DNA from: a virus
Length of the DNA: 56,765 nucleotides
IMG/VR virus record: IMGVR_UViG_3300045988_138309
Direction: 5' to 3' (one strand)
Made by a program: the position numbers and the translations under genes. Below the pieces are notes generated by a model. The model ran no database searches. It was not told where the DNA came from and saw nothing but the letters and a program-made list of their open reading frames with translations. This document shows positions 27,753 through 55,908 of the stretch, in pieces; the stretch's first letter is position 1; each line of letters starts with the position of its first letter.

Positions 27753-28913
27753 CTACGAGTAGAGCTCCCAGGCGGAGGCGTTCCCGCCTCGAGCCTCGAA
27801 GGTTAAGATGGCCGGCTTGGTGGAGTCCCCGCTGATGTTGGTCCACCAGTCGGATCCCCGGTCTGCCGACGGGCAGGAGATGATCCAGCGAGAGTCACCG
27901 ACCTGGCGCACGCCGAAGTTGTGCCAGTGCCCGTGCACGAGGATCCTGGCGTCGTAGAGGCCACTCCGGCGGCCGAAAGCAAGGTCCCTGAACCAGGTAG
28001 GCACCTTACTCTGGGAGCCCGCCAGATGCCCGTGCGTGAAGCCGATGCGGGTGCCGTCGGCGGCATCCACGGTGACAGCCTCCTCCCACTTCTCAGGGCG
28101 GTGGAAGGTGACGTGCTCGTAGCCCTCCCGGTCCTCGATGATGTCCTCGATGTTCTTCGAGATCATGATGCCGAAGTCGTCATCGGGGGCGTTGGCGCGA
28201 GCGTTCTTGCCGGTCCCGGTCCTCACGGCGCAGTGGTTGGAGGGGACGGCGACGTAGTAGAGGGATGAGCACAGTGGGGCGAACGTTAGCAGGGCCTCGG
28301 CGTAGAGGCGCTGCACGACGCGGATCTGGTCGGTTAGGCTGAGGTCGTTGGTCTGGGCCTGGCTGGCGACGTTCCAGAACCCCTCGGTCGAGTCCCCGAC
28401 GTCGGCGAGAATGATGCGATTGTAGTGGCCTCGGAAGAGGATGTCGTCGGCGATGTCCTTGATCGCCCTGCGCACGAGCCGGACCGTGTCCTCGGTGCCG
28501 CCGCCCTGCCCGGTTTTCCCGGCCTGAACGTCCGCCATGCAGACGACAAGCGTGTCATCCTCGATATTGGCGGACACCTGAGGAATAAGGGGCTCCTGGA
28601 AGACGGGCTCCAGGTCCTCGTAGGAGAGGCGCTTGGCCTCCTCCATCTCCAGGGTGCCGGGGCGGTACTCGATCTTCTCGTAGGAGCCGTCGGCCAGGCG
28701 GACGGTCTTGCCCCGCTTCGTGATGGCGCCGACGGGGAGGTCGAAGAACTCGTCCCGGCTCAGCTCGTCCCGGCCCTTGCGCTTCAGCGCCCGTCTGTGT
28801 CGTCGCACGGTCGCCTCAGAGGTGTTGAACTCCTCGGCCAGGTCGATGTTCGTCTTGCGCTCGCGCTCGGGGAGCGCGTCATTGGCGATGATCGCCTCAT
28901 CCAGCGGGCTCAT
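27753..28913 (-). CDS. N-terminal HTH fused to a calcineurin-like metallophosphoesterase
   Basis: HTH DLAEEFNTSEATVRRHRRAL. Phosphoesterase motifs: ADVGDSTEG, PSNH, THGH, HGHWH. Motif I is atypical (MADVQ). Start chosen at MSPLDEAII with a GGAGA RBS; the track Met at 29015 lies in AT-rich intergenic DNA. Confidence 0.6.
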   Translation of the reverse strand: MSPLDEAIIANDALPERERKTNIDLAEEFNTSEATVRRHRRALKRKGRDELSRDEFFDLPVGAITKRGKTVRLADGSYEKIEYRPGTLEMEEAKRLSYEDLEPVFQEPLIPQVSANIEDDTLVVCMADVQAGKTGQGGGTEDTVRLVRRAIKDIADDILFRGHYNRIILADVGDSTEGFWNVASQAQTNDLSLTDQIRVVQRLYAEALLTFAPLCSSLYYVAVPSNHCAVRTGTGKNARANAPDDDFGIMISKNIEDIIEDREGYEHVTFHRPEKWEEAVTVDAADGTRIGFTHGHLAGSQSKVPTWFRDLAFGRRSGLYDARILVHGHWHNFGVRQVGDSRWIISCPSADRGSDWWTNISGDSTKPAILTFEARGGNASAWELYS

Positions 28914-29041
28914 GGGTCTCCAATCTAGAGGTTGCTGGGAATACTGAGGACAGTTTATCCCCGTCCCCAACCTTTTCCACAAATCCTTGCGCGTATTGAT
29001 ACCTAAGTTACGCAAGTCACATCAGTGAACTTATGCAGATA

Positions 29042-30150: not shown

Positions 30151-33100
30151 ATGCGCATCATGGACCTGGAGAAGGTCGTGAGCCAGGCCAGGAAGGCCGC
30201 CCAGGGCTCACACACGCCCTGTGGCCCGATCACGTGGGTCTGGGGCAAAGAGGACCTGAAGGCCCTCGTCAAGGCCGTCCACGCCTCGCAGAAGGTCGTC
30301 ATGGACCTCGAGACCACCGGCCTGGACGAGTACGCGGAGGCCGGCGGCGACACCAACGGCAGCTACCCCGCACGGATCGTCCTGGCCTCCCTGACCCTGC
30401 CCAGTGCCGAGCGCGCGGCGGCCGGTGCCTACAACTGGCGCAGCTTCGACGGCGAGCAGCCGATGACCTACCTAGTGCCTCTCTCGCACCCGGCCAGCCC
30501 CCTGCTCGGCTCGTGGAGGAAGGTCATGGCGATCATCGGCCGCGAGATCAACCGCAGCGGCAAGCCCTTCGTCAACGCGAACATCAAGTTCGACGCCCGG
30601 TGGGTCTTCGCCCAGGCCGGCGTGGACCTGTCCGACCGCATCGAGTGGGACACGACCGTCTCGTCCCAGCTGGTGGACACAGAGGCCCGCACCCGCCTCA
30701 AGATTCGCGCCGCGCGCGACTTCGGTATCGAGGAGTGGGACGACTTCGACCTAAGCACTCCAGGCGCCGCCGAGCAGGTCGACCTGATCCAGCTGGGCGA
30801 GTACGCCGCCCGTGACACCTACTACACCTGGAAGATCGAGGAGAAGCACCGCGACCAGATGTTCCTCGCCGGGGACGAGGAGCCCTTCGACTCCGACGAC
30901 ATCCAGATGGCCCGCCTAGGTAAGGTCGCCACCTACGTCGCCATGCCGACTGTGAAGACTCTCACAAAGGTGGAGCAGCGCGGCTTCCTGCTCGACGTCG
31001 ACTGGGTCCACGCCAAGATCGAGGAGATGGACGCCCTGCGCCTGAAGGCCTGCGAGGACATCCTCGGCCTGTACGGCACCGCCCCGGCGCCTGCGCCGGC
31101 GAAGGACGGCGTCACCACGGCCGCGACGTCGAAGTGGTTCCAGGGCTTCGTGGCCCAGGCCATCGAGGCCGGCGACCTGCGTGTGACGGCCCGCACGGAC
31201 TCCGGAAACGCTCAGTGGAACAAGGCGGTCCTCATCGCCCAGCAGCGTCAAGGCAGCCCCGCCGCCGACGCGTTGCTGCGCCACCGCGACGCGACGAAGA
31301 CGCTAGAGTTCCTGCGCTCGTGGCTGGAGCTCCGTGACCCAAACAACGTGATCCATGCCACATACAACGTGGGATTTGTAAAGACGGGAAGATTAAGTTG
31401 TGCCTCCCCGAATCTTCAACAGTGCCTACACGGTGCTGACGAGGTTCTTACCCGCTCCGGGTGGGTGCGGCTTGACGCTCTCGAGCACGGGGTCGAGATC
31501 ATGCAGGTCTCGGAGACCGGGGAGGGCTCCTGGGTCGTGCCTACCGGTTACGTGGACAAGCCCTACGCGGGAAACATGGTCCGCATGAAGTCGGATTGGA
31601 TCGACGTCCTCATGACCCCGGATCACCGCCTCCTGACCCACACCCGTGGCGGAGCTCCTCGCTGGGAGCGGGCCTCGCAGTGGGTGGGGACTGCCGGAAA
31701 GATCGTTGACCGCAAGTTCATCCGCGCTCTGACCTCCGCCCCAGATGCCCCCGACCTTACGGAATCTGAGCGCCGGGAGGTGCGCATGGCCATCGCCATG
31801 CAGGCCGACGGGTCGAGCTCCCGTAAGTCATGGCAGGCGACCGTCGTTAAAAAGCGGAAGGGGGAGGCCCTGATCGAGATGGGAGGAGAGTACCGCGCAG
31901 GATGGGCACGCCCCTGCTACACCCTCCGGGTCCCTAAAGAGAGCCTGTCCAAGTGGCTTGACCCGGAGAGCAAGAACTTCCGGCCCGAGGCATTCCTCGC
32001 TCTGAACCGGAAGGACTGCGCGTGGGCGCTCGACGAGATTCTTCGCTGGGACGGGGACTCTACTCGGGGGTGCACCTACACCCAGAACCAGGCACGCCGC
32101 CCCTCCGTAGACCTGGCACAGGCGCTGGCCGCAATGTGCGGGCGCTCGACCACTCTCTACCGGAAGCAGGTCGATGGGGTGACCTATCCCACGGCCAACT
32201 TCCACCGCAAGGCGATCCGCTACGCGTCCCGGATGTGGGTCACGGAAGAGCCCTACGACGGGCGGGTTTATTGCGTCTCTGTCCCATCGGGCGCCTTCCT
32301 GGCTCGGAGTGGTGGGACGGTCTGGGTCACCGGCAACTGCTCTGCGTCACTAAAACCTGCCTTCATCCCCCGTCCGGGGCACGTCCTGCTCGACCTCGAC
32401 TACAGCCAGGTCGAGCTGCGGGTGGCGGCGTTCATCTCCCGCTCTCAGCCTATGATCGAGGCATTCCAGCGTGGTGATGATCTTCACAGGCTCCTTGCTG
32501 CGAAGATCGCCGGAAAGGCGCCGGAGGACGTCACCAACCTGGAGCGCAAGCGGGCTAAGGCTGGCAACTTCGGCCTCCTCTACGGCATGAGCCCCGGCGG
32601 CTTCCAGTCCTACGCCGCCACCGCCTATGACGTTTCTCTCACTTTGGCGGAGGCTCAGGCCGTCCACAGCGCGTTCTTCGAGATGTGGGATGGCATGCGC
32701 CAGTGGCACGAGCGCGCCAAGCGCCGGGCCTACGAGCGCGGTTATGTGACATCCCCTATCGGGCGCACGCAGTGGCTGAGCGACCTCTACTCGAAGAGCT
32801 CGTTCAAGTCCTCCCACGCCGAGCGCAACGCCCTGAACAGCCCCGTGCAGGGCTTCGGCTCGGACCTCATGCAGATGGCGGCCGCCTCGATCATGGGGAC
32901 CCTGCCCGGCTACCCGCTGCCCCGAGTAGAGGGGGCGCACGTCGTTGCCACCGTCCACGACGAGATCTGCATCGAGGTGCCGGAGGACCGCTGGCAGGAG
33001 ATCCTGATCGAGTGCAAGCGCCGCATGGAGGACGTGAACACCTTCCTGCGCCCGCTCGACTGCCAGATGGACGTCCCGATCGTGGCCGGCCCCTCGGCCG

Positions 33101-33159
33101 GGACGCGCTGGGGCGTGCACGACCTGCACGACGAGGATGACCCGCTCCCAGCAGTCTGA
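30151..33159 (+). CDS. polA: Family-A DNA polymerase (3'-5' exonuclease plus polymerase) interrupted by an intein
   Basis: Exo I motif MDLETTGL; TGRLSCASPNLQQ; motif A DLDYSQVELRV; motif B KRAKAGNFGLLYG; motif C VHDE. 697 aa without the intein. Confidence 0.9.
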   Translation: MRIMDLEKVVSQARKAAQGSHTPCGPITWVWGKEDLKALVKAVHASQKVVMDLETTGLDEYAEAGGDTNGSYPARIVLASLTLPSAERAAAGAYNWRSFDGEQPMTYLVPLSHPASPLLGSWRKVMAIIGREINRSGKPFVNANIKFDARWVFAQAGVDLSDRIEWDTTVSSQLVDTEARTRLKIRAARDFGIEEWDDFDLSTPGAAEQVDLIQLGEYAARDTYYTWKIEEKHRDQMFLAGDEEPFDSDDIQMARLGKVATYVAMPTVKTLTKVEQRGFLLDVDWVHAKIEEMDALRLKACEDILGLYGTAPAPAPAKDGVTTAATSKWFQGFVAQAIEAGDLRVTARTDSGNAQWNKAVLIAQQRQGSPAADALLRHRDATKTLEFLRSWLELRDPNNVIHATYNVGFVKTGRLSCASPNLQQCLHGADEVLTRSGWVRLDALEHGVEIMQVSETGEGSWVVPTGYVDKPYAGNMVRMKSDWIDVLMTPDHRLLTHTRGGAPRWERASQWVGTAGKIVDRKFIRALTSAPDAPDLTESERREVRMAIAMQADGSSSRKSWQATVVKKRKGEALIEMGGEYRAGWARPCYTLRVPKESLSKWLDPESKNFRPEAFLALNRKDCAWALDEILRWDGDSTRGCTYTQNQARRPSVDLAQALAAMCGRSTTLYRKQVDGVTYPTANFHRKAIRYASRMWVTEEPYDGRVYCVSVPSGAFLARSGGTVWVTGNCSASLKPAFIPRPGHVLLDLDYSQVELRVAAFISRSQPMIEAFQRGDDLHRLLAAKIAGKAPEDVTNLERKRAKAGNFGLLYGMSPGGFQSYAATAYDVSLTLAEAQAVHSAFFEMWDGMRQWHERAKRRAYERGYVTSPIGRTQWLSDLYSKSSFKSSHAERNALNSPVQGFGSDLMQMAAASIMGTLPGYPLPRVEGAHVVATVHDEICIEVPEDRWQEILIECKRRMEDVNTFLRPLDCQMDVPIVAGPSAGTRWGVHDLHDEDDPLPAV
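31423..32337 (+). mobile_element. Class-1 intein (305 aa) with a LAGLIDADG-type homing endonuclease domain
   Basis: Inserted between PNLQQ and motif A. Block A CLHGADEVLT; block B LMTPDH; DOD motifs AIAMQADGSS and ILRWDGDST; blocks F/G VYCVSVPSGAFLA...VWVTGN followed by a +1 Cys. Confidence 0.8.
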
Positions 33160-33161
33160 TT

Positions 33162-33370
33162 GAGACTTACATCTCAAAACCTCAAAACCGGGAATACGTT
33201 GGAAACGCTGGGGAAAGTCCAGTATTCCCACATTCTCGGAGACATGCGTCACACTTTCACCCCACATCCCCTGAGACATACGTCTCAAAACCCGGAAACC
33301 GGGAATACGCAGTGATTGCAACGTTTAAGGCCTATTCCCAAACCACTCAGAGATCTACATCACACTTTTA
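33162..33370 (+). repeat. Two copies of an approximately 111-bp tandem module in an AT-rich intergenic region
   Basis: GAGACTTACATCTCAAAACCTCAAAACCGGGAATACG (33162-33198) matches GAGACATACGTCTCAAAACCCGGAAACCGGGAATACG (33273-33309). Each copy also carries GGGAATAC...(G)TATTCCC and TCACACTTT. Confidence 0.8.
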
Positions 33371-33379
33371 GGAGACACC

Positions 33380-33871
33380 ATGCGCAACGCGCTGCGCACC
33401 TACCCCGCCCGCAAGGCCACTATCCAGGGCCGCCCCGCCGTCCAGGTCCGGGACACGAAGAACGAGATCGAGTACTGGGTCGAGATCACCGACGAGCCGG
33501 ACGCCGGCGGCCGCTACCACGTCGTGAACCTCCTGTGCCGCCCAGACGCGGGCGTTCGCTTCCCCGATAGTGTCCCCCACAGGACCCTCTGTGAAATCGC
33601 CGCAAACGTGCTTGAGAGGGCCGAGAAGCCTGCACGGGGTGGCAACCAGTACCGAGGGGCCCCAGTCGAGACCCTGCGCGCGATGGTCGAGGAGGGCAAG
33701 ACCCGCACCGACATCGCCAAGGAGCTTGGCCGCAGCGTCTACACCGTGGACTCGTGGCTGCGCCGGGCTCGCCGCATCGACCCGACCTTCCCAGGCACGA
33801 TGACGAAGGGCGGGGCGCGACGCCCGGCTCGCAACCGGACCCCCTACCGAAGGGCTCCGAAGGGCGCCTGA
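33380..33871 (+). CDS. HTH DNA-binding protein with a basic C-terminus
   Basis: The segment TRTDIAKELGRSVYTVDSWLRRAR is HTH-like. GGAGACACC RBS. Confidence 0.55.
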   Translation: MRNALRTYPARKATIQGRPAVQVRDTKNEIEYWVEITDEPDAGGRYHVVNLLCRPDAGVRFPDSVPHRTLCEIAANVLERAEKPARGGNQYRGAPVETLRAMVEEGKTRTDIAKELGRSVYTVDSWLRRARRIDPTFPGTMTKGGARRPARNRTPYRRAPKGA

Positions 33872-33885
33872 GCCCCCTCTCCGAA

Positions 33886-33916
33886 GGGCCCCAGCCATCG
33901 CGGCTGGGGCCCTTTT
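33886..33916 (+). terminator. Intrinsic terminator
   Basis: GGGCCCCAGCC / GGCTGGGGCCC stem followed by TTTT. Confidence 0.75.
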
Positions 33917-34217
33917 GCGTGCCCTAGATCACGTCCCCGCCGTCCGTCCACATCCTGAGACAGGTGTCCGCATAGTGAGAAAGTGAGGGCGGTCACGGCG
34001 TTTTAAGCACGGTTGGAAGGGTAACTAATACTTATGTCAAAATGTGTATGCCAAGTTACAAGTTCCCCCGTACTCGGGCGTGTCGCACTACAACTTCCGC
34101 GTGTCGGGCCCCCTTACTGGGATTAATCAGTATGCCTGCATACTATTCCCAGATATGGGTGTGATGAATGTCTAACTTTTAAACCCCGATTCCGTGAACA
34201 AATTCACCAATTGGCTA

Positions 34218-34247
34218 TTGAAATGGCCCCCCTGAAAGTGCTATCAT
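34218..34247 (+). promoter_or_regulatory. Candidate promoter firing into the palindrome and desert
   Basis: TTGAAA, 18-nt spacer, TATCAT, at the edge of the AT-rich patch. Confidence 0.4.
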
Positions 34248-34262
34248 GCGCGCCCGCGCGCG

Positions 34263-34347
34263 CCCACACACACTCGCGCCCCCGGGTCTCCTCCCCCTGA
34301 CGGAGTCAGGGGGGGAGGAGACCCGAGGGGCGCTCGTGTTGTGTGGG
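34263..34347. repeat. 85-bp near-perfect palindrome (about 37 bp of pairing, 3-nt centre)
   Basis: CCCACACACACTCGCGCCCCCGGGTCTCCTCCCCCTGAC gga GTCAGGGGGGGAGGAGACCCGAGGGGCGCTCGTGTTGTGTGGG. Flanked by GCGCGCCCGCGCGCGC on one side and ATATATGTGTATATAT on the other. Confidence 0.85.
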
Positions 34348-35808
34348 TAGTGGAATATATGTGTATATATGAGCCAGGTCACACCTAGTGCCGAGCCCGT
34401 TTCCGCACCCGTTGCCGGTTCCGACCCGACCCCTCGCTCCGCTGCGCTCCGCTTCGGGGTCGGGTCCTTGAACCCCGGTCCGATCCGTGCCCGTCGCTAG
34501 CGCCGGGGAGCCTTCGCCCCTGCGGTGTCCGCGTGAAGGGCGCTGCGGCGCTGGGGCGCCGGTCGCCCACGCGTCCTCGCAGGTTCTTGGCTCCAGGCGG
34601 AGAGGCTTTCCTCGGGTCGCCGTGTTGAGGCTCGCTCCGCTTCGCTGCGCTCGGTCAACACGCCCGCCCCTCGGGCCTCTCTGCGACCTCGAGCGCCGAC
34701 GGCGCCCCGTCGAGATCCTGCGAGCCGGGACCTGAAAGCCGTGCCGCCGCACCTTCGTGCCGGGGATAGGGCCGCACATGCCCCCCAGAGGCCGTGTAAG
34801 CGATTCTGAGGGACTTTTACCTCGCCTCCGCACTCCGGGAGGGGTCCGGCCCTGAAAGGCGCTCAGAATGGCTTAGAACGCTCCTGAGGGATTCCGGCGC
34901 CGGGCCGCCCCGAGCCACGCCCACGCACCTTCGTTCCGGGAGGGGCCGCGCCGCCACCACGAATGTGATGACACTCACCCGAGAAATGGCCGCGTCGATT
35001 TGCATCGGGCCCCCGGATGGTGTTTAATAGACCCATCACCGCCGAGGGAGCGAAACTCCCCGGATTGGCCGCCGCAAGCCGGCGGCGGAAGTCCCTTTCC
35101 GGATGAGGAACTAACCCAAGGCGGTAGAGATACCCAGTCAGCTGGGAGGCTTTGCGAGTACGCGATGGCCTGGACGGACGGGACTCAGACGGGACACGCC
35201 TCCCGGGGTCCTAAGCCAAGTCGACCACCGCTATAAGGCCCGCACGGCCTGGATAACTGGATTCCGCCAATCATCACCACCGGCGTCGGGAAAGGCCTTG
35301 TGTGTTCCCCGTAGCCCCCGGCTCGTAGTTAGGGGTGGGCCGCCAAACGAGTCTCCGAAGTCGGTGAGGGTGTAGGACCGTGGGTTGAAGGCCCCGAGGT
35401 TCGCCGAGAAGCAAGCACAGGTCAGTGCGAGGGGACGGGGACCGGAGGACAACCTGAAACGCGATCCGTGACGCAGTCGACAGGTCCCGGTACGCGGGGA
35501 GAAGCGGCTCTGCAAGGAGCGCCCCGCTGAAACGCTTCCTCGGGAAGGTCCCCGCTAGACGAGCCCTTCGAGTGTGCTGTCACCACCGGCAGACTCGATC
35601 CGGTGAGACTGGCCCGGGAAGTCCCCCGAGCGATGGGAACCGTCTCTACGGGACCGTCCGGCCTGTGGTGGGCCTGGCGGCGACGTACGCGGGAAACTGA
35701 GACCGGATTCACCCGGACGTCTAGTCAACGTCTCATGAGCCTTCGTAATGAATGGACTTCCAGCCGCGGGACGCGGCAACGCCGGCCGGTAACGGCCCCT
35801 GGAACCTC

Positions 35809-35850
35809 TTGAGGTTCCACTACCCTTCGAGTAGTGTATGCGGGGCATAC
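35809..35850 (+). promoter_or_regulatory. Promoter with an overlapping palindromic operator
   Basis: TTGAGG, 17-nt spacer, TAGTGT. GTATGcggggCATAC (35836-35850) covers the -10 and +1. GGAACCTCTTGAGGTTCC (35801-35818) overlaps the -35. Confidence 0.45.
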
Positions 35851-35869
35851 ACCCGACAAAGGAGATGAC

Positions 35870-36214
35870 ATGCCCCGCCCCAGCAAGGACAAGCTCGTTC
35901 CCTACGTGGACGACCGCCCAGACCTCGACCAGCGGTTCGCGCCGTTGGATGCCCCCACATCGATCGACTTCGGCCGGAAGCCGGGAAACCCTTCCAGTCC
36001 TCGAAAGTCGGTGACCTTCACGATGAGGGAGGCTACCTGGGAGAGAGTCGTTCGCCGGGCAGAGCGCCAGGGCCTGCAGCCTAGGATCGTCCTAGCACGC
36101 CTCATGGAGGCGTACGGGAATCGCGAGCTCGACCTCGCACCTCACCCCTCGGGAATCAAGGTGACTCCCCACCGGACCACCTTCACCAATCCAGACAACC
36201 CCTCGAACCGGTGA
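35870..36214 (+). CDS. Small DNA-binding protein candidate (ribbon-helix-helix-like)
   Basis: ATG 35870 after AAAGGAG. The segment KSVTFTMREATWERVVRRAERQGL...IVLARLMEAY is RHH-like. Confidence 0.4.
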   Translation: MPRPSKDKLVPYVDDRPDLDQRFAPLDAPTSIDFGRKPGNPSSPRKSVTFTMREATWERVVRRAERQGLQPRIVLARLMEAYGNRELDLAPHPSGIKVTPHRTTFTNPDNPSNR

Positions 36215-36278
36215 CCGGCTGACTACCGGTCACCGGTTTCAGGGCATCTACCCGCCCGACACCTAGCACCCAGGACCC

Positions 36279-38735
36279 ATGAGCACAACTGAGCAGCACA
36301 ACGCGGCCGTCGTAGAGGCGGCCCTTGACGCGTACCGCAGGGGGCTGACGCCCCTGCCCATCCCACGACACTCCAAGAGCCCGACAATGGCCAGCTGGAC
36401 TAAGCTCCGATGGCCGGACCCCACGACCGACACCGGGGAAGGTGAGGACGCCGTCCGTGCCGCCTTCGAGGAGTACACGGCCGGCGGCTCCACCAACCTC
36501 GGAGTCCTCCTCGGCGAGGCGTCGGGAGACCTCATCGACGTCGACCTGGACCACCCCGCCGCGGCGCGTCTGAAGTCGTACCTGCTGCCCCACACGGCAG
36601 CGGTCCACGGCCGCGAGACGTCCCGCAAGTCGCACTACTGGTACCGCGCCAAGCCGGGCACCCTGCCAGCTACGCGGCGCCTGCGCATCCCCGACAAGTC
36701 GGGCCGCGGCTCGGGCGTGTCGGTAGAGATCCGCGGTAACGGCGCACAGACCATCGTGCCGCCCTCGATCCACCCCGCCACGGCGGAGACCTATGAGTGG
36801 GAGGGTGAGCCGTGGGGCGGCGACGAGGGCCCCGCCGTCGTTGACGGCACCGAGCTCCTCGCGCAGGTGACCCTCCTCGGCCTGTGCGCCGTCCTCCTGG
36901 ACGCCTGGCCCGGGCCCGGCCAGCGCCACGACGCCTACGTCGCGCTTGCTGGCGGTCTCCTTCGTTACGGGGACTCGCAGACCGTGCACCCGTTCTGGGA
37001 GCGCAACGCGGGCCTCGTCATCCGCATCCTCGCTCAGGCCACTCACGACGAGGACGGGCCCGAGCAGCGCGAGCGTGAGGCGATCTACACGACCAAGCGC
37101 CGCCTTCGTGAGGGCGGGGAGGCTGTAGGTTTCACCCGCCTGGCCGAGTACATCGGGGAAGAGAGCGTGAAGGTCCTCGAGCGCCTAGTGCGCGACGCGG
37201 AGGCGGTGGCCGGCTTCGTGCCGGACGTGGCCGGTGACGTGCCAGGATGGCAGCCGCCGTGGGCGAAGCAGTGGGACGGTCTGACCATCGAGCTCGATGA
37301 GGACGCCCCCGCCCCCGCCTTCGTTGACGGGGACGATTCCTCCGAACCGCGGTCCTTGGGGGCCATTCGCCCGGACAACAGGCAGCCGGTGGCCGGAGAT
37401 GAGCCGTACGGGAAGGCTGGGGAGGCTGAGGAGGCCAGCCCGGACGATGACGTCGATGATGCTCGGGAGGACCTGGACCCCCCGGACCCCCTGGACGCTC
37501 GCCCCTCGTCCTGGAGCCCTGTCGACCTGGAGCCCTACCTGACCGGGAAGCTTAAGGTCCCGGCCCCGGAGGTCTGCCGCCGCAACGACGGCGCCTGCCT
37601 GATGTACCGAGGCCGCGTGAACATGCTCTTCGGTAGCAGCGAGTCGGCCAAGTCGTGGATCGCCATGGCGATCTGCCTTCAGGAGATTGAGGCCGGCGGC
37701 CGGGCCCTGTATCTCGACTTCGAGGATGAGCCGGTCCAGACGCTTAACCGCCTCCGCCTGCTGGGCGCCGTGGACGACGACCTTCGGGCTCAGTTCTCCT
37801 ACATCCGCCCCGAGGGGCCGCTGGCCGATATGCAGCGCAACAAGTGGGGTAAGGACCAGCCCACGAAGAGCGGAGAGTTCGCCCAGGACCAGTTCGACAT
37901 GGCGCTTCAGACCCTCGACCCGGACATCATCGTGGCCGACGGTATGACCGCCCTCTACGGCCTGCACGGCCTGGACGCGAACGACGCCGTTAGCACTGAC
38001 GTCATCACGTCTTGGCTGAAGCGTCTGACCCGTAACGGGCGCTCGACCGTCATCATCATCGATCACCAGGCCAAGAGCGCCGAGAAGGGATCCATGCCCA
38101 TCGGCTCGCAGCACAAGGTCGCCATGGTCCAGGGCACCCTGCTTCAGGTGTGGCCGATCAAGCAGCCCATGCCTGGCGACGTCGGTGAGATGGAGCTCGT
38201 CGTACTGAAGGACAGGCCCGGCCAGGTCCGCGCCCATTCCCAGAAGACCGGCGGGCGCGGCAAGGCGCAGGTGGCCGGAGTGGTCACTCTCGACAGCCGC
38301 ACCGAGGGGCGCTCGTCCCTCGTCATCACACCCCCTCGTCGCACCCCTTCCGGAGGCGGCGGCGGGCTGAGAGCAGACGGCGAGGACGTGAACGATGCCG
38401 AGAGGCGGGTTGAGCTGGACTTCACCGACATGTCCAAGGTGATGGAGAAGATGGCTCAGCGGCAGGACGACGAGGACACGGTCATCGGGGCGTTCAAGGG
38501 CGAGATAGGCGCCGAGCTGAGCTCGCGAGCCCTGTACGACCTAGTGGACGCTGACCTCCCGAGGAGCAGAACCAAGTCGGCCCTGGGCCGCCTTATCTCG
38601 CGAGGTTGGATCATGGCCGTAAGAGGCCGGGGAGGCAACCAGTACACGCTGGCCGCTGTGGGCGAGGACGGTACCGAGGAGCGGGACCTAGATGCCGCCG
38701 AGAACGGGAAGGAGAGTGAGGACGCCGGTGCGTGA
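36279..38735 (+). CDS. Bifunctional primase-polymerase (PrimPol) plus RecA-fold replicative helicase/ATPase
   Basis: N-terminus: GLTPLPI...K.P...W, DVDLD, SHYWY, VEIRGNG.QTIVPPSIHP. C-terminus: Walker-A-like GSSESAKS and IIIDHQAK. Confidence 0.8.
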   Translation: MSTTEQHNAAVVEAALDAYRRGLTPLPIPRHSKSPTMASWTKLRWPDPTTDTGEGEDAVRAAFEEYTAGGSTNLGVLLGEASGDLIDVDLDHPAAARLKSYLLPHTAAVHGRETSRKSHYWYRAKPGTLPATRRLRIPDKSGRGSGVSVEIRGNGAQTIVPPSIHPATAETYEWEGEPWGGDEGPAVVDGTELLAQVTLLGLCAVLLDAWPGPGQRHDAYVALAGGLLRYGDSQTVHPFWERNAGLVIRILAQATHDEDGPEQREREAIYTTKRRLREGGEAVGFTRLAEYIGEESVKVLERLVRDAEAVAGFVPDVAGDVPGWQPPWAKQWDGLTIELDEDAPAPAFVDGDDSSEPRSLGAIRPDNRQPVAGDEPYGKAGEAEEASPDDDVDDAREDLDPPDPLDARPSSWSPVDLEPYLTGKLKVPAPEVCRRNDGACLMYRGRVNMLFGSSESAKSWIAMAICLQEIEAGGRALYLDFEDEPVQTLNRLRLLGAVDDDLRAQFSYIRPEGPLADMQRNKWGKDQPTKSGEFAQDQFDMALQTLDPDIIVADGMTALYGLHGLDANDAVSTDVITSWLKRLTRNGRSTVIIIDHQAKSAEKGSMPIGSQHKVAMVQGTLLQVWPIKQPMPGDVGEMELVVLKDRPGQVRAHSQKTGGRGKAQVAGVVTLDSRTEGRSSLVITPPRRTPSGGGGGLRADGEDVNDAERRVELDFTDMSKVMEKMAQRQDDEDTVIGAFKGEIGAELSSRALYDLVDADLPRSRTKSALGRLISRGWIMAVRGRGGNQYTLAAVGEDGTEERDLDAAENGKESEDAGA

Positions 38736-53621: not shown

Positions 53622-53652
53622 CCGGGCGGCCGCCGGGAGGCGGCTTGCAGCA

Positions 53653-53684
53653 GGCCCCGCTCACCTGAGGAGGTGGGCGGGGCC
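53653..53684 (+). terminator. Intrinsic terminator
   Basis: GGCCCCGCTCACC / GGTGGGCGGGGCC stem followed by GTTTC. Confidence 0.6.
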
Positions 53685-53916
53685 GTTTCATGCCCGTGAA
53701 GGGGTCTAGGAGCCTGACTGACGGACTTTCAGGGCCGGGCAGGGCCGTCATACGGGTGGGGAGGTTCTAGGCCGTCAGAGAGGCTCTCACGGCCTCACAG
53801 GCGGCGGTCCCTCCGTAGGAGGGACGCGAGGTGCAGGGCAGCGGCCGCCCCGCTCGGGAGAGGCGGCCGAGCGGGGCGCGGCCTCTGAGGCCGCCAGAGC
53901 CCCTGAGACGGCCGAA

Positions 53917-53948
53917 CGCCCCGGTACCTAGGTGCAGGTACCGGGGCG
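53917..53948 (-). terminator. Terminator hairpin after the reverse-strand gene, nested in a 14-bp outer inverted repeat (53900-53913 / 53958-53971)
   Basis: CGCCCCGGTACC / GGTACCGGGGCG stem. Confidence 0.55.
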
Positions 53949-53972
53949 CGGGTGCTAGGCCGTCTCAGGGGC

Positions 53973-54509
53973 TTACAGGGCCGTGGAGAGGCGCTGCAGG
54001 GCGAGCCGGGCCGAGGGGGCGTGGGCCGCGGCCAGCGCGTAGCGGTCCTGCCAGCGGGTGAGCTGGTGCGGGTGCACGGCCCGAAGGGGGCTGTCCGGGG
54101 CCGGGCGCCGCCCGGCCGGGACGTCGTCCCAGGAGATCGGGACCGCGAACCACGTCCGTACGGACAGGCCGCCGTCGGCCAGCAGCTCCTCGGGGATCCC
54201 GTCGAGGGCGTGAGGGTCCTCTCGACGGACCGTGGACGCGGGGGCGGCGGCCCAGGCCGGGACCTGCTCGATCCGGGCGATGGAGTGGCCGCCGATCTCG
54301 CCCCACGTCCGGACCCGCCCCTCGCCCTGGACTTTGTAGGCGGGGGACGGGGAGGCCACGACGCTGACCGGCTGCCCGGCCAGAGGGTGCGGAGAGCCGT
54401 TAGGCAGGGTGGCCGGGTGCAGGGCCGGCTCGTCGTCGAAGGCGTGGTCGATGACTCGGTAGGTGGTTCGAGGGCTGTCGGTCTGGCTGAGGGAGTAGCG
54501 GTTGCTCAT
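53973..54509 (-). CDS. Hypothetical 178-aa protein, apparently leaderless
   Basis: Start MSNRYSLSQ at complement 54507-54509, 7 nt downstream of the -10. No Shine-Dalgarno. Confidence 0.5.
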   Translation of the reverse strand: MSNRYSLSQTDSPRTTYRVIDHAFDDEPALHPATLPNGSPHPLAGQPVSVVASPSPAYKVQGEGRVRTWGEIGGHSIARIEQVPAWAAAPASTVRREDPHALDGIPEELLADGGLSVRTWFAVPISWDDVPAGRRPAPDSPLRAVHPHQLTRWQDRYALAAAHAPSARLALQRLSTAL

Positions 54510-54545: not shown

Positions 54546-54586
54546 GCCGTCGAGGCGGGTCTGAGGGAGCTTGGGCCGGCTGCGCG

Positions 54587-55197
54587 AACCTGGGAGAAAC
54601 CTGGGAACGTAGTGTGGCGCCAGCCACAGGTCCTTATTGTATCTATGGCTTCCCCTCCCCTACGGGGAGGGGAAGCCTATTAGAGAATATGTAACTTAGC
54701 ATACAACCGCGCCATTCCAACGGAAAGTACGTATGCCCTGCATACATTAGGTACCGGCAAGTGTATGCTAAGTTACGTGTGACCCAGATCTCATGCAACC
54801 AGGCATACGTCACTTTGAGAAATTAATTTGAGTGACGGCATTCACATACCTGGAGGTACAGCGGGGGAGAAACCTGGGAGAACCCTGAGAAACCTGGGAG
54901 AACCCTGGGAACCGCTACGGCCCTGAGAGGGTCCGAGCTGGGCGGGCGGGTCCGGCCGAGCGGGGTCGGGCAGCCCTCTCGGAGAGGTCGGGAACCTGTA
55001 CCGGACCGGCCCGGGGCGTCTACGTACCGCCCCGCCGCCGGCGGTCGGACCGAGGAGAACGGAGCAGAGAGGCAGGCCGGACGGAAAGCGGCGCAGCGCT
55101 GGCGGGGCTGGCGGAATACCGCGGAAAACTGGGACGATGTATGCCGTCATAACGGACTTTTCGTTGCAATCCCAACGGTCGAGAAAACCTGGGACGG
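54587..55197 (+). repeat. Iteron-like AACC(C)TGGGA repeats, including a perfect 20-bp tandem duplication at 54867-54906
   Basis: Copies at about 54587, 54598, 54871, 54881, 54891, 54901, 55125 and 55185. All are in one orientation with local spacing of 10-11 bp. Confidence 0.75.
54691..54776. promoter_or_regulatory. Composite operator: two inverted 14-mers flanking a central palindrome
   Basis: GTAACTTAGCATAC (54691-54704), GTATGccctgCATAC (54731-54745) and GTATGCTAAGTTAC (54763-54776), in an AT-rich patch. Confidence 0.5.
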
Positions 55198-55363
55198 AAT
55201 TAGGCATGCCGTGGACCGTCCCCGCACCCACACCCGTTGGCTAGGCTAGCCGTGGCCGTGGTCACACAAGATGGCTGGATAGGCGGTGCCGGTCCGGTGC
55301 CGCTTGCCCCCGGCCGCCGCGCAGCGCGGCGGCCGCGGCTGCGCGCGAGCGCCCTCGGCGCCA

Positions 55364-55572
55364 GTGCATGACACGGTGCACCCTCATCGCTACGGCGCCT
55401 GCGCTCCGCTGCGCTCCGCGGCGCGGGCGCCTGGGCGATGAGTGCGCAGCGATGTCATACACGCGCCGTCGGGCACTCGCCCCTCGGTCGTACGGGCCCT
55501 GGCGGAGGCGTGCATGCCAGGGTGCACCCGCCTGCGCCTAGGGGCTCCGGCGGGTGCAGCCATGGCATACAC
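55364..55572. repeat. Two related long imperfect hairpins (55364-55462 and 55509-55572)
   Basis: Arms GTGCATGmCA..GGTGCACCC pair with ..TGkCATACAC. The apex of the first hairpin carries the 18-mer CGCTCCGCTGCGCTCCGC. Confidence 0.7.
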
Positions 55573-55687
55573 GCCCCGGCAGGGGAGGGCTGTGCGGGGC
55601 GGCTCACCTCGAGGCGGGGTGTCGATCGGGCTGGCGCCCTCTCGAACCGCCTCGGGCTCGGGGTGCCCGCTACGCCCTCAGGTCCGG

Positions 55688-55840: not shown

Positions 55841-55908
55841 GCCAGGTCTCCTTAGAGTGCGTGAGAGGGGCTGTCAGGGGTAGGCGACGGGACGGCTGGG
55901 CGGGCGGC

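What the first reader, a model, noticed from the sequence alone, without database searches (positions are those of the whole stretch)
34218..34380. Promoter firing into an 85-bp near-perfect palindrome flanked by alternating GC and AT tracts
TTGAAA, 18-nt spacer, TATCAT (34218-34247) points into GCGCGCCCGCGCGCGC. Next comes a palindrome with about 37 bp of pairing and a 3-nt centre (34263-34347), then ATATATGTGTATATAT. As DNA it is cruciform-capable and origin-like. As RNA it would be a very stable hairpin of about 40 bp at the 5' end of a transcript. Palindromes of this length are otherwise known as protelomerase or initiator targets. No protelomerase-like gene is present.
Basis: partly seen in the sequence, partly recalled or inferred. 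Interest (0 to 1): 0.65.

Follow-up and report, generated by a model that had tools for sequence, protein, structure and literature searches.

The report
Conserved promoter-fed giant hairpin in phage
An unusually stable 85-base hairpin sits directly behind a conserved promoter in every known relative of this ~57-kb high-GC phage. It opens a 1.5-kb gene-free but conserved and base-paired stretch beside the replication genes, so it is most likely the capped start of a long structured RNA, or else the hairpin where replication begins.

Summary
The hairpin is the most stable 110-nt window in the genome. The window is a complete ~57-kb tailed-phage genome from a family known only from metagenomes.

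- **Conservation.** The hairpin sits at the same site in every relative with intact sequence (41 distinct variants). Its base is fixed, including a small internal mismatch. The apex varies from about 17 to 37 bp and is fully compensated.
- **Promoter.** The -35 is conserved, the 17-18-nt spacer varies in sequence, and the -10 is mostly TG-extended. The predicted start lies at the hairpin base.
- **Downstream.** About 1.45 kb is non-coding yet more conserved than synonymous sites. It carries abundant compensatory pairing, including nested long-range helices. Rfam has no match.

Best reading (0.45): the hairpin is the 5'-terminal stem-loop of a long structured RNA or leader ahead of the primase-helicase operon.

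Main rival (0.3): a DNA-level origin hairpin for the PrimPol-helicase. The pRN1 plasmid is a precedent, and I found iterons, DnaA boxes and a 44-bp-arm palindrome beside the homologous gene in Microbacterium phages. However, this phage's comparable iterons lie 20 kb away.

Telomere and packaging roles are unlikely.

The parts
33884..33920 (+). Intrinsic terminator (13-bp perfect stem followed by TTTT) that closes the upstream DNA polymerase / HTH gene block.
   Evidence: Inverted repeat I5; sequence; local z -4.1.
33990..34217 (.). Low-GC (46-51%) regulatory zone with four motif types. TGTATGCCAAGTTAC lies at 34044. GCGTGTCG occurs twice, at 34078 and 34099. The operator-like palindrome GTATGCCTGCATAC lies at 34130-34143. 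GTGAACAAATTCAC lies at 34194-34207, just upstream of the -35.
   Evidence: Composition. Motif positions. Conservation across loci. The same motifs recur in the 54.7-kb zone.
34218..34247 (+). Sigma-70-type promoter: TTGAAA, 18 nt, TG-extended TATCAT.
   Evidence: Scan. In 30 distinct relatives the -35 is TTGCAA, TTGCAT, TTGAAA or TTGCTA. The spacer is mostly 17-18 nt and varies in sequence. The -10 is TAnnnn, mostly with TGn upstream.
34248..34263 (+). Alternating GC tract forming a mini-hairpin. The predicted transcription start falls inside it. It is absent from the distant clade, where the start abuts the long hairpin.
34262..34348 (.). The long imperfect palindrome or hairpin. It has an 11-bp base of CA/TG repeats, a 2x2 mismatch (TC/CT), a ~26-bp GC-rich upper stem and a GGA loop.
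   Evidence: Fold. Most stable window in the genome. 41 distinct variants in relatives. 97.5% of cells paired, 8 pairs changed on both sides, 0 of 500 shuffles as good.
34355..34370 (.). Conserved AT-rich element ATATATGTGTATATAT. As RNA it would be an AU-rich single-stranded or weak-hairpin segment. As DNA it is a candidate unwinding element.
   Evidence: Unique in the window. AT-rich in all clades inside a 65-75% GC context.
34391..34426 (+). Six in-phase CCGNNN hexamers: CCGAGC CCGTTT CCGCAC CCGTTG CCGGTT CCGACC.
   Evidence: Only one other place in the genome reaches this score, and it lies inside the major head protein gene. Close relatives have 6-7 copies, distant clades 3-6.
34423..34466 (+). 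11-bp hairpin displaying a (CGCTN)4 pentamer-repeat loop.
   Evidence: 6 of 11 pairs covary. The same 18-nt loop sequence recurs at 55402, with a variant at 34633, all on the + strand.
34501..34599 (+). Nested multi-helix domain: three stacked long-range helices separated by internal loops, enclosing two invariant hairpins.
   Evidence: 27 pairs, 99.2% of cells paired, 7 pairs changed on both sides, 0 of 500 shuffles as good, slid controls 0-1 (alignment A5, 42 sequences).
34614..34670 (+). Second hairpin with a pentamer-repeat loop (GTGTTGA...TCAACAC).
34782..34893 (+). Most sequence-conserved block of the non-coding stretch, called 'element A' here. A paralogue lies on the minus strand at about 53690-53806.
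   Evidence: Conservation. Paralogue with compensated helices. Covariation among orthologues is not significant.
34894..35808 (+). Remainder of the non-coding, conserved, base-paired stretch.
   Evidence: No GC3 signal. No 3-periodic substitution, and indels are mostly not multiples of 3. Helices with compensatory change, for example 35133-35146, 35538-35632 and 35716-35732. Global test.
35809..35850 (+). Second promoter, TTGAGG-17-TAGTGT. The operator-like palindrome GTATGCGGGGCATAC (35836-35850) overlaps the -10 and the start site.
   Evidence: The hexamers are conserved in Dulem virus 38 while the spacer varies.
35870..36214 (+). 114-aa ORF with a good Shine-Dalgarno sequence. It has a beta-alpha-alpha core (residues 46-81), so it is possibly a ribbon-helix-helix regulator. 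This is not confirmed.
36279..38735 (+). PrimPol (archaeo-eukaryotic primase) fused to a RecA-like P-loop (AAA_25) helicase domain.
   Evidence: Pfam Prim-Pol 1.8e-18 and AAA_25 3.4e-9. PHROG DNA primase.

Best explanation
A host-type, probably regulated, promoter at 34218-34247 starts transcription at the foot of the palindrome. The palindrome is therefore made as the 5'-terminal stem-loop of a long transcript, with 27-38 pairs in the window's clade and about 17-21 in the distant clades.

That transcript runs through about 1.45-1.55 kb of non-coding, extensively base-paired sequence towards the operon of the small ORF and the PrimPol-helicase. It is either a stand-alone structured RNA or a very long leader.

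**Inferred role of the hairpin.** It seals the 5' end against 5'-end-dependent decay by RNase E and RNase J, both found in Actinobacteria. Because it is long double-stranded RNA with a conserved internal loop, it may also be an RNase III processing site.

**Shown here:**
- The promoter architecture is conserved.
- The hairpin is conserved and its changes are compensated.
- The downstream stretch is non-coding, constrained and paired.

**Inferred only:** that the region is transcribed at all, where the 3' end lies, and what the RNA does. Its position between the family A DNA polymerase and the primase-helicase suggests a link to replication.
For: **Promoter.** In 30 distinct relatives the -35 is kept (TTGCAA, TTGCAT, TTGAAA or TTGCTA). 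The spacer is mostly 17-18 nt but its sequence drifts freely. The -10 begins TA (CA in a minority) and usually has TGn upstream. This is the classic comparative signature of a promoter. A conserved GTGA-N6-TCAC palindrome and a GTATGC..GCATAC operator lie upstream.

**Position.** In the distant clade only 5-7 nt separate the -10 from the hairpin base, so the RNA would begin flush with the stem.

**Hairpin.**
- There are 41 distinct variants. The stem ranges from about 17 to 38 bp and the loop is GGA, GAA, GTA or TCC.
- Pairing holds throughout: 97.5% of cells are paired, 8 pairs changed on both sides, and 0 of 500 shuffles did as well.
- The distance between the two conserved base halves varies from 19 to 52 nt. 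This argues for a folded form and against a duplex site bound by a dimer.

**Downstream 1.45 kb.**
- There is no GC3 bias and no 3-periodic substitution. Indel lengths modulo 3 are 404, 149 and 65 for remainders 1, 2 and 0.
- Other gene callers also find no genes there.
- Identity to relatives is 77-88%, against about 70% at third codon positions of PrimPol.
- Of 271 predicted pairs, 97.0% of cells are canonical, against 93.1% in shuffles. 68 pairs changed on both sides, against 34.8 +/- 3.0 in shuffles (maximum 43) and 16-26 in slid controls.
- The nested long-range domain at 34507-34594 has 7 compensated pairs.

**Shared motifs.** All three (CGCTN)n loop motifs lie on the + strand. Element A and its minus-strand paralogue are each in the sense orientation relative to local transcription.
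Against: - There is no transcript evidence of any kind.
- The strand could not be determined. In helices found on both strands, G-U counts are 25 against 20 for A-C. In the stronger helices the counts are 17 against 9. A palindrome is uninformative on this point in any case.
- Outside the hairpin, local folding energy is not exceptional.
- 5' stabiliser hairpins, as I recall them, are much shorter than 27-38 bp.
- The last base of the -10 is often not T, so the promoter may be weak or dependent on an activator.
- The RNA reading does not require the conserved AT-rich element, the alternating purine-pyrimidine tracts or the CCG hexamers. All three fit an origin at least as well.
- Palindrome arms can stay complementary through DNA-level template switching. 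One variant has a flipped loop and another has a 'repaired' mismatch. Compensation in the hairpin itself is therefore weak evidence for RNA.
- No Rfam family matches.
Confidence: 0.45

Rival explanations
1. The palindrome acts at the DNA level as the core of a replication origin. Transcription from the adjacent promoter, or negative supercoiling, opens the AT-rich element. The GC-rich palindrome then extrudes as a hairpin on each strand. The neighbouring PrimPol-helicase assembles or primes on it, possibly at its GTG-rich 3' arm.
For: **Precedent in pRN1.** Its minimal replicon is a repressor gene, a PrimPol-helicase gene, a promoter and one ~100-nt stem-loop. The stem-loop is essential, can be moved, and depends on structure. 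The authors report similar stem-loops beside homologous phage genes (PMC4234260).

**Precedent in RSF1010.** Its archaeo-eukaryotic-type primase RepB' primes on ssiA and ssiB, which lie on complementary strands and each contain a hairpin. Earlier in vivo work suggested a GTG triplet as the start site (PMC8567376).

**Found here.** Microbacterium phages Hendrix, Leaf and Rasputia have a PrimPol 46-52% identical to this one. In the ~370-420-bp gap just 3' of that gene they carry:
- a palindrome with 43-44-nt arms in Leaf and Rasputia and a comparable long imperfect hairpin in Hendrix, with GTGTGGGG/CCCCACAC at its apex;
- tandem iteron-like repeats;
- DnaA-box matches (TTATCCAC / GTGGATAA).

**In the window.**
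- The palindrome lies inside the replication module.
- It is the most stable hairpin in the genome.
- A conserved AT-rich 16-mer and a CCG-hexamer array flank it.
- Its fixed base with a variable apex suits recognition of an extruded form.

Promoter-activated origins are known from established work on T4, T7, lambda and ColE1.
Against: - The iterons that resemble the Microbacterium-phage ones (GAGAAMCCTGRGA, five exact copies) are confined to 54594-54910. That is 20 kb away, beside another AT-rich zone, and they are conserved across clades. The classical origin candidate is therefore elsewhere.
- No DnaA box lies near the palindrome. The window has 8 matches at up to one mismatch, against 6.9 expected, and none falls in 33.9-35.9 kb.
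- In pRN1 and the Microbacterium phages the hairpin lies 3' of the gene. Here it lies 1.9 kb 5' of it.
- This reading does not explain why the promoter start is flush with the stem.
- It also does not explain 1.45 kb of compensated single-strand folding downstream.
Confidence: 0.3
2. The hairpin is a cis-acting RNA control element, not a stabiliser. It could be a promoter-proximal attenuator or pause site, or a processive-antitermination element like the HK022 put RNAs. Either would decide whether RNA polymerase reads through the hairpin-rich 1.5 kb to reach the primase-helicase operon.
For: - The hairpin lies immediately behind a conserved promoter.
- Many GC-rich hairpins downstream could act as U-tract-less terminators.
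- The right arm (34318-34341) is 88% complementary over 24 nt to 34656-34679, which offers an alternative pairing.
- The second promoter carries an operator, which suggests layered control of the replication genes.
Against: - No U-tract follows the stem, and the scan found no terminator-like site in 33000-37000.
- As I recall them, put RNAs are two short stem-loops with specific bulges, not one 27-38-bp stem.
- The alternative pairing is extensive only in the long-stem class. The downstream segment is invariant whichever class is present.
- The replication operon has its own promoter.
Confidence: 0.1
3. The palindrome has no function of its own. It is a self-maintaining DNA palindrome, kept symmetrical by intrastrand template switching or gene conversion, that happens to sit in a tolerant non-coding region.
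For: - One variant has the loop flipped (TCC in place of GGA). Another has the mismatch converted to perfect pairing. The apex changes length in symmetrical blocks. All are hallmarks of DNA-level palindrome dynamics.
- The long-form insert resembles a nearby sequence at 34664-34680.
Against: - It is retained at the same site in all clades, including ones whose PrimPol is only 72-75% identical.
- The base sequence, the internal mismatch (40 of 41 variants), the spacing to the promoter and the AT-rich flank are all conserved.
- Long palindromes are normally unstable and tend to be lost unless selected (established knowledge).
Confidence: 0.05
4. The palindrome is a telomere-resolution site for a protelomerase, or a packaging or terminus site.
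For: The length and the CA/TG plus CG composition loosely recall the telRL site of phage N15 (recalled from memory).
Against: - None of the ORFs scanned is a protelomerase or a tyrosine recombinase. The 680-aa ORF of unknown function carries a Spherulin4 domain.
- The centre of the palindrome is an asymmetric 3-nt loop, and the stem carries conserved mismatches.
- In about 15 independent near-complete contigs the PrimPol gene starts 34-41 kb from one contig end. Ends therefore cluster at the window's own ends and not at the palindrome. There are two exceptions.
- The terminase genes lie at 46.8-49.2 kb.
Confidence: 0.02

Closest known systems
5'-terminal stabilising stem-loops of bacterial RNAs (for example the ompA 5' UTR hairpin), which protect against 5'-end-dependent RNase E and RNase J
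   Same: The stem-loop begins within a few nucleotides of the predicted start. Stability and position are conserved, while the apex sequence is not.
   Different: This stem is 3-5 times longer than typical examples. It has a sequence-conserved base and internal loop. It heads a 1.5-kb non-coding RNA and not an mRNA. No RNA data exist. The comparison rests on my own knowledge and was not tested.
The pRN1 stem-loop origin, with the orf56 repressor and the orf904 PrimPol-helicase (PMC4234260)
   Same: A large structure-dependent stem-loop lies in a non-coding region beside a PrimPol-helicase gene, which is preceded by a small gene. The stem is rich in GTG/CAC. Sequence conservation in the stem is low but the structure is kept.
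   Different: The pRN1 helicase is superfamily 3, whereas here the helicase domain is RecA-like (AAA_25). The pRN1 stem-loop lies 3' of the gene and has a 58-nt loop, whereas here it lies 1.9 kb 5' and has a 3-nt loop. Here a promoter fires into it. The regulator fold of the small ORF was not confirmed.
The non-coding gap 3' of PrimPol in Microbacterium phages Hendrix, Leaf and Rasputia (Rogerhendrixvirus). Its features were observed here and are not annotated in the records.
   Same: The PrimPol-helicase is homologous (46-52% identity) and the order DNA polymerase, small genes, PrimPol is the same. A palindrome with 43-44-nt arms carries a GTGTG/CACAC plus G/C-run core. The iteron unit GAGAAnnCWG resembles the window's iterons.
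   Different: In those phages the palindrome, iterons and DnaA boxes are contiguous within ~400 bp downstream of the gene. Their palindrome stem is AT-rich. They have no 1.5-kb structured non-coding block. In the window the iterons and the palindrome lie 20 kb apart.
The ssiA and ssiB sites of RSF1010, used by the RepB' primase and RepA helicase (PMC8567376)
   Same: An archaeo-eukaryotic-type primase acts on hairpins presented on both strands by inverted repeats, starting near GTG. As I recall, the plasmid's RepA helicase is also a RecA-like P-loop enzyme.
   Different: The ssi hairpins are about 10 bp within 40-nt sites and are two separate sites. They are exposed by an iteron-binding initiator, RepC. 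No RepC homologue or adjacent iterons occur here.
Transcript-primed or transcription-activated origins: ColE1 RNA II with DNA polymerase I, T4 ori(uvsY) and ori(34), and the mitochondrial light-strand promoter with CSBII and OriL
   Same: A promoter fires into a structured region with G-runs, followed by an easily unwound segment. The replicon encodes or uses a family A polymerase. The long structured RNA lies upstream of the replication functions.
   Different: No RNase H site, no persistent-hybrid motif and no antisense regulator has been demonstrated here. The minus-strand promoter-like site at 34382-34354 is not conserved in the distant clade. This is analogy only.

Membership tests
Sigma-70-type bacterial promoter | -35 and -10 hexamers at 16-19-nt spacing, conserved across relatives while the spacer sequence varies | tested here: met
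   The -35 (TTGCAA-like) is kept in all 30 distinct sequences. The spacer is mostly 17-18 nt with variable sequence. The -10 begins TA (CA in a minority) and mostly has TGn upstream.
Sigma-70-type bacterial promoter | The invariant A at position 2 and T at position 6 of the -10 | tested here: inconclusive
   A2 is conserved. T6 is present in the window (TATCAT) but is C or G in many relatives. The promoter may depend on the extended -10 or on an activator.
Sigma-70-type bacterial promoter | An experimentally mapped transcription start | not testable with these tools
   No transcript data are available.
5'-terminal protective RNA stem-loop | The stem begins within about 0-4 nt of the 5' end | tested here: inconclusive
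   The predicted start is flush with the stem in the distant clade and about 8-10 nt upstream in the window's clade. There the 5' CGC can pair beyond the stem. The start is predicted, not mapped.
5'-terminal protective RNA stem-loop | Pairing conserved irrespective of sequence | tested here: met
5'-terminal protective RNA stem-loop | Removal shortens the RNA half-life | not testable with these tools
   An experiment is needed.
pRN1-type replicon (PrimPol-helicase plus stem-loop origin) | A replication protein with an N-terminal archaeo-eukaryotic prim-pol domain | tested here: met
   Pfam Prim-Pol, E 1.8e-18, residues 15-178.
pRN1-type replicon (PrimPol-helicase plus stem-loop origin) | A superfamily 3 helicase and a winged-helix domain | tested here: not met
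   The C-terminal half matches AAA_25 and RadB-like RecA-type P-loop models. No D5 or superfamily 3 model matched. The winged helix was not tested.
pRN1-type replicon (PrimPol-helicase plus stem-loop origin) | A large conserved stem-loop in non-coding DNA next to the replication gene | tested here: inconclusive
   A large conserved stem-loop exists, but it lies 1.9 kb upstream and not immediately downstream. Homologous Microbacterium phages do have one immediately downstream.
pRN1-type replicon (PrimPol-helicase plus stem-loop origin) | A small CopG / ribbon-helix-helix repressor gene preceding the replication gene | tested here: inconclusive
   A 114-aa ORF precedes PrimPol. The single-sequence model shows a beta-alpha-alpha core but has a mean pLDDT of 60. 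No Pfam hit and no fold match were found.
pRN1-type replicon (PrimPol-helicase plus stem-loop origin) | [quoted passage not shown] | not testable with these tools
   An experiment is needed.
Iteron / DnaA-box origin | Tandem iterons and/or DnaA boxes next to an AT-rich element | tested here: not met
   None occur at the palindrome. Iterons are confined to 54594-54910. No DnaA-box match falls in 33.9-35.9 kb. The CCG hexamers at 34391-34426 are a different kind of repeat.
Protelomerase target (telRL-type) | A protelomerase gene in the genome | tested here: not met
   None of the ORFs scanned matches a protelomerase or a tyrosine recombinase.
Protelomerase target (telRL-type) | A perfectly two-fold-symmetric centre | tested here: not met
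   The centre is a 3-nt asymmetric loop (GGA, GAA, GTA or TCC). Mismatches are conserved.
Known structured RNA family (Rfam 15) | A covariance-model match at the gathering score | tested here: not met
   No hits in the whole window. With the E-value threshold on 33800-36300 the only hits are far-sub-threshold microRNA-precursor matches to the hairpin and other weak hits.
Intrinsic terminator | A GC-rich stem followed directly by a U-tract | tested here: not met
   The stem is followed by TAGTGGAATATAT. The scan found no terminator-like site in the region.

The most novel reading that the evidence does not exclude
The promoter and hairpin mark the start of a previously undescribed ~1.5-kb structured non-coding RNA that belongs to the phage's replication machinery. 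It could be a ColE1-RNA-II-like or mitochondrial-type pre-primer or R-loop RNA for the phage's family A polymerase and PrimPol-helicase. It could equally be a scaffold RNA. It shares modules with two further non-coding regions of the same genome: the (CGCTN)n loops, and element A with its minus-strand paralogue. That would make it a new class of large phage RNA and the first transcript-dependent origin described in an actinobacterial phage.
Probability: 0.2. Interest if true: 0.8.

Novelty: new variant of a known kind. Interest (0 to 1): 0.55.

Why it matters
Tailed phages rarely spend 3% of a 57-kb genome on conserved sequence that codes for nothing. Here that sequence sits between the polymerase and the primase-helicase and begins with a promoter and the genome's strongest hairpin.

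If it is RNA, it is a large structured phage RNA with no Rfam relative. It would join the small set of large bacterial and phage RNAs of unknown function.

If it is DNA, it extends the pRN1 idea that PrimPol-helicases start replication on a big stem-loop to a whole family of abundant phages known only from metagenomes, several of them human-associated. Together with the clear iteron, DnaA-box and palindrome arrangement seen in Microbacterium phages, it offers a testable origin model for actinobacteriophages, whose origins are, to my knowledge, largely unmapped.

Either way the element is a defined, compact target for experiment. It also breaks or corrupts assemblies at this site (poly-C runs, N gaps), which matters for curating these genomes.

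Tried and rejected
- **Rfam.** The gathering threshold on the whole window and the E-value threshold on 33.8-36.3 kb gave nothing meaningful.
- **tRNA and tmRNA.** The only call is a permuted 'tmRNA*' at 55519-56003, in a different non-coding region. It is probably a false positive.
- **Coding potential of 33.95-35.8 kb.** Rejected on GC3, substitution periodicity, indel lengths and third-party gene calls.
- **Strand assignment from G-U against A-C mismatches.** Inconclusive: 25 against 20, and 17 against 9.
- **Local folding z-scores.** Unremarkable beyond the hairpin, so 'exceptionally stable throughout' is not claimed.
- **Covariation in the most conserved block, element A.** Not significant among orthologues: 79.9% paired against 79.3% in shuffles. 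RNAalifold on a MAFFT alignment of that block was also weak.
- **Aligning the distant clade by sequence in 34385-34700.** The alignment was unreliable and was not used for pair counts.
- **Minus-strand promoter-like site at 34382-34354.** It lies in an AT-rich element and is not conserved in the distant clade, so it was given little weight.
- **DnaA boxes.** Not enriched, and none is near the palindrome.
- **Host or prophage search in 185,579 species genomes.** No PrimPol relative was found. Two pattern hits are at the level expected by chance.
- **Protelomerase.** Not found.
- **Sequence search of PrimPol against PDB chains.** Only spurious antibody hits.
- **Fold of the 114-aa ORF.** A low-confidence model with no structural match, so the ribbon-helix-helix idea is unconfirmed.
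- **Literature search on Actinomyces phages.** Unproductive.
- **Metatranscriptome evidence.** None was identifiable among the contigs that encode the small ORF.


Full report
**What the window is.** The 56,765-bp window is a complete or near-complete genome of a tailed phage with 66% GC.
- Structural genes: portal, head, tape-measure, tail and endolysin genes occupy 0.4-23 kb.
- Replication module:
  - a minus-strand exonuclease at 27753-29015;
  - a family A DNA polymerase at 30151-33159;
  - an HTH protein at 33380-33871;
  - a PrimPol-helicase at 36279-38735;
  - an SNF2 helicase, a second exonuclease, Sak4 and SSB.
- The terminase genes lie at 46.8-49.2 kb.
- A regulatory region with genes on both strands lies at 52-56.7 kb.
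- The closest database phage is Dulem virus 38, from lemur saliva, with a PrimPol 81% identical.
- IMG/VR and public metagenomes hold roughly a hundred contigs of the same family.
- No relative was found in 185,579 species-representative bacterial and archaeal genomes.

**Check of the observation.**
- The promoter-like site TTGAAA-18-TATCAT has a TG extension and matches 10 of 12 positions. The scan found 2 such sites in 4 kb, against 0.4 expected.
- The long hairpin at 34262-34348 has 38 predicted pairs and a GGA loop.
- The 146-nt segment folds at -90.0 kcal/mol (z -6.7) on the + strand and -91.8 (z -7.6) on the - strand. No shuffle did as well.
- It is the most stable of 3,777 overlapping 110-nt windows in the genome. 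A second large hairpin cluster at 53866-53975 comes close.

**The hairpin in relatives.**
- It lies at the syntenic site in every relative whose sequence is intact. I collected 41 distinct versions from 91 occurrences.
- Three contigs that seemed to lack it have poly-C runs or an N gap at exactly that spot. These are sequencing or assembly failures caused by the hairpin.
- There are three size classes, with stems of about 17-21, 27 and 37 bp.
- The base is conserved in all clades: CCCACACAC(AC)TCGCG on one arm and CGCTCGTGTGTGGG on the other. It includes a 2x2 to 3x3 internal mismatch in 40 of 41 versions.
- The upper stem is replaced in blocks with full compensation. Examples are TCCTTCCCCC, TCCTTGCCCCC, TCCTGTCCCCC, CCCCCGGGTCTCC and CCCCTGTGTCTCC, each with its complement.
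- The loop is GGA, GAA, GTA or, once, the flipped TCC.
- On a 25-sequence alignment 97.5% of cells pair and 8 pairs changed on both sides. No shuffle of 500 did as well, and slid controls pair only 38-62% of cells.
- The two conserved base halves lie 19-52 nt apart in the duplex. Conservation therefore makes most sense for a folded form: an RNA hairpin, a single-stranded DNA hairpin or a cruciform.
- Palindrome arms can also be homogenised by DNA template switching. The flipped loop and one 'repaired' mismatch show this happens. Compensation in the hairpin therefore does not by itself distinguish RNA from DNA.

**The promoter.**
- Across 30 distinct upstream sequences the -35 is kept as TTGCAA, TTGCAT, TTGAAA or TTGCTA.
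- The spacer is mostly 17-18 nt but its sequence drifts.
- The -10 begins TA (CA in a minority) and usually has TGn upstream. This pattern indicates a real promoter.
- The last base of the -10 is often C or G, so the promoter may need the extended -10 or an activator.
- A conserved GTGA-N6-TCAC palindrome abuts the -35.
- The 300-bp low-GC zone upstream holds one of seven copies of an operator-like palindrome, GTATGC-N2-3-GCATAC.
  - At least four of those copies overlap promoters that I read as TTGCNN, a 17-18-nt spacer, a TAnnnT-type -10 (TACGCT, TACAGT or CATACT) and an ATG 6-7 nt downstream, that is, leaderless starts.
  - One copy overlaps a second promoter, TTGAGG-17-TAGTGT at 35809-35837. 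That promoter serves a 114-aa ORF and the PrimPol gene.
- In the distant clade the -10 lies 5-7 nt from the hairpin base, so a transcript would begin flush with the stem. In the window's clade a 14-16-nt GC mini-hairpin intervenes.

**What lies downstream.**
- From 33950 to about 35800 there is no codon-position GC bias. Flanking genes show 0.8-0.98 GC at third positions.
- Substitutions show no 3-periodicity. Indel lengths modulo 3 are 404, 149 and 65 for remainders 1, 2 and 0.
- Independent gene callers leave the interval empty.
- The stretch is nonetheless 77-88% identical among close relatives, whose PrimPol third codon positions are only about 70% identical.
- It carries many compensated helices:
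  - An 11-bp hairpin at 34423-34466 has 6 covarying pairs.
  - A nested three-helix long-range domain at 34507-34594 has 7 pairs changed on both sides, 99.2% pairing and 0 of 500 shuffles as good.
  - Further helices extend out to 35777.
- Over all 271 predicted pairs downstream of the hairpin, 68 show changes on both sides. Shuffles give 34.8 +/- 3.0 (maximum 43) and slid controls give 16-26.
- Three caveats apply:
  - The structure was predicted from the same alignment.
  - The sequences are related to one another.
  - The most sequence-conserved block, element A at 34782-34893, shows no significant covariation among orthologues.
- Irregular nested helices of this kind point to a single-stranded fold and not a cruciform.
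- The strand could not be determined from wobble pairs.
- Local folding energies beyond the hairpin are ordinary.
- Rfam has no match.
- Microbacterium phages have the same order of DNA polymerase, small genes and PrimPol, but lack this block.

**Evidence for an origin.**
- The pRN1 plasmid replicates with a repressor gene, a PrimPol-helicase gene, a promoter and one essential, movable, structure-dependent ~100-nt stem-loop. Its authors noted similar stem-loops beside homologous phage genes (PMC4234260).
- RSF1010's archaeo-eukaryotic-type primase primes on ssiA and ssiB, hairpin-containing sites on complementary strands, and earlier in vivo work suggested a GTG start (PMC8567376).
- I examined the Microbacterium phages Hendrix, Leaf and Rasputia, whose PrimPol is 46-52% identical to this one. 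In the ~370-420-bp gap just 3' of that gene they carry, as shown:
  - tandem iteron-like repeats;
  - one or two DnaA-box matches (TTATCCAC / GTGGATAA);
  - a large imperfect palindrome (43-44-nt arms in Leaf and Rasputia) with GTGTGGGG/CCCCACAC at the apex.
- A giant hairpin therefore travels with this PrimPol lineage.
- In the window the hairpin is followed by a conserved AT-rich 16-mer and six in-phase CCGNNN hexamers. That periodicity is matched only once elsewhere in the genome, inside a gene.

**Evidence against an origin at this site.**
- The repeats that resemble the Microbacterium-phage iterons (GAGAAMCCTGRGA, five exact copies) are confined to 54594-54910. They lie beside another AT-rich operator zone and are conserved even in the distant clade.
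- There is no DnaA box near the palindrome.
- The origin reading explains neither the flush spacing between promoter and stem nor the 1.45 kb of folded sequence.

**Related modules elsewhere in the genome.**
- Two other stretches lack coding signal and fold strongly:
  - 53625-53950;
  - 54550-55700.
- They share motifs with the region studied here:
  - An 18-nt (CGCTN)n sequence is displayed in hairpin loops at 34435, 34633 (a variant) and 55402, always on the + strand.
  - TGTATGC(C/T)AAGTTAC occurs in both AT-rich zones.
  - Element A has a paralogue on the minus strand at about 53690-53806. Its helices are compensated (TAAGC/GCTTA against GAGCC/GGCTC, and CTGAG/CTCAG against CTGAC/GTCAG) and it shares the apical sequence CCGGCCCTGAAAG.
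- That paralogue lies 3' of a minus-strand leaderless gene. Both copies are therefore in the sense orientation relative to local transcription. This is a modest point in favour of RNA.

**Other readings.**
- A telomere or packaging role is unlikely:
  - No protelomerase or tyrosine recombinase appears among the ORFs scanned. The 680-aa ORF of unknown function carries a Spherulin4 domain.
  - The centre of the palindrome is asymmetric.
  - In about 15 independent near-complete contigs the PrimPol gene starts 34-41 kb from one end. Ends therefore cluster at the window's own ends, with two exceptions.
- The stem is not followed by a U-tract, so it is not a canonical terminator.

**Verdict.**
- The best-supported mechanism (0.45) is a promoter-driven long structured RNA or leader whose 5' end is the hairpin, which protects or processes that end.
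- The main rival (0.3) is a DNA-level origin hairpin for the PrimPol-helicase, possibly activated by the same promoter. The two readings can coexist, as in transcript-primed origins.
- Each ingredient has precedents, so I rate the finding a new variant of a known kind.
- The 1.5-kb structured non-coding block and its sister modules are the part most likely to be new.

Noticed in passing
window 30151-33159 (about aa 423-738): The family A DNA polymerase is 1,002 aa long. Its middle ~315 aa match only unrelated PHROG families (PhoH, thymidylate synthase, ribonucleotide reductase). Close relatives encode a 697-aa polymerase. This looks like an intein insertion.
   Followed up: partly
window 81, 34130, 35836, 52704, 53242, 54518, 54731: There are seven copies of the palindrome GTATGC-N2-3-GCATAC. 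At least four overlap promoters of the form TTGCNN, a 17-18-nt spacer, a TAnnnT-type -10 and an ATG 6-7 nt downstream, that is, leaderless starts on either strand. One more overlaps the second promoter at 35809-35837. This looks like the operator set of one phage regulator.
   Followed up: partly
window 54594-54910 (weaker copies near 55126 and 55183): Five exact tandem or near-tandem iterons GAGAA(A/C)CCTG(G/A)GA lie next to a 46-48% GC zone. They are conserved in relatives, including the distant clade, and resemble the iterons beside PrimPol in Microbacterium phages. This is a second, classical origin candidate.
   Followed up: partly
window 53625-53950 and 54550-55700: Two more stretches lack coding signal. 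The first holds three strong hairpins (-116 kcal/mol over 151 nt, z -8.3). The second holds a ~27-bp imperfect palindrome at about 55506-55577. ARAGORN's permuted 'tmRNA*' call at 55519-56003 falls in the second and is probably spurious.
   Followed up: partly
window 34435-34452, 34633-34652, 55402-55419: The same (CGCTN)3-4 pentamer-repeat sequence (CGCTCCGCTGCGCTCCGC) is displayed in the loop of a hairpin in three places, always on the + strand. The repeats at 34433 and 34631 also coincide with a recurrent assembly break point in metagenome contigs.
   Followed up: partly
window 34782-34893 (+) and about 53690-53806 (-): These are paralogous ~110-nt elements with compensated helices and a shared apical sequence, CCGGCCCTGAAAG. 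Each is in the sense orientation relative to local transcription.
   Followed up: partly
L059 8340-8708, L060 8322-8728, L166 3834-4256 (Microbacterium phages Hendrix, Leaf, Rasputia): The unannotated gap 3' of the PrimPol gene holds tandem iteron-like repeats (GGATTCTCNNGAATTCTCAGAG), one or two DnaA-box matches, and a large imperfect palindrome (43-44-nt arms in Leaf and Rasputia). This is a textbook-looking origin that the records do not annotate.
   Followed up: partly
L012 about 4006-4075, L016 about 4000-4055, L028 about 4018: Public contigs carry long poly-C/poly-G runs or NN exactly where the hairpin should be. The hairpin defeats sequencing or assembly at this site.
   Followed up: yes
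window 34318-34341 against 34656-34679: The right arm of the palindrome is 88% complementary over 24 nt to a segment 314 nt downstream. The extra segment of the long-stem class (CCCCCGGGTCTCC) resembles that downstream sequence (CCCCTCGGGCCTC). This suggests an origin by template switching, or possibly an alternative pairing.
   Followed up: no
window 1-80, and contig ends of L009-L056: In about 15 independent near-complete contigs PrimPol starts 34-41 kb from one contig end, which implies fixed genome ends at the window's ends. The left end carries three copies of GGGGCGGT(C/T)GGTGC.
   Followed up: partly
window 33380-33871: The 163-aa protein immediately upstream of the regulatory zone matches sigma-70 region 4 and HTH_23 and gives a weak ECF-sigma hit. 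It could be the regulator, or a sigma-like factor, acting on the promoter studied here.
   Followed up: no
window 36200-36244: A 19-bp inverted repeat (89% complementary) followed by TTT lies between the 114-aa ORF and PrimPol. It may be an attenuator or terminator within the operon.
   Followed up: no
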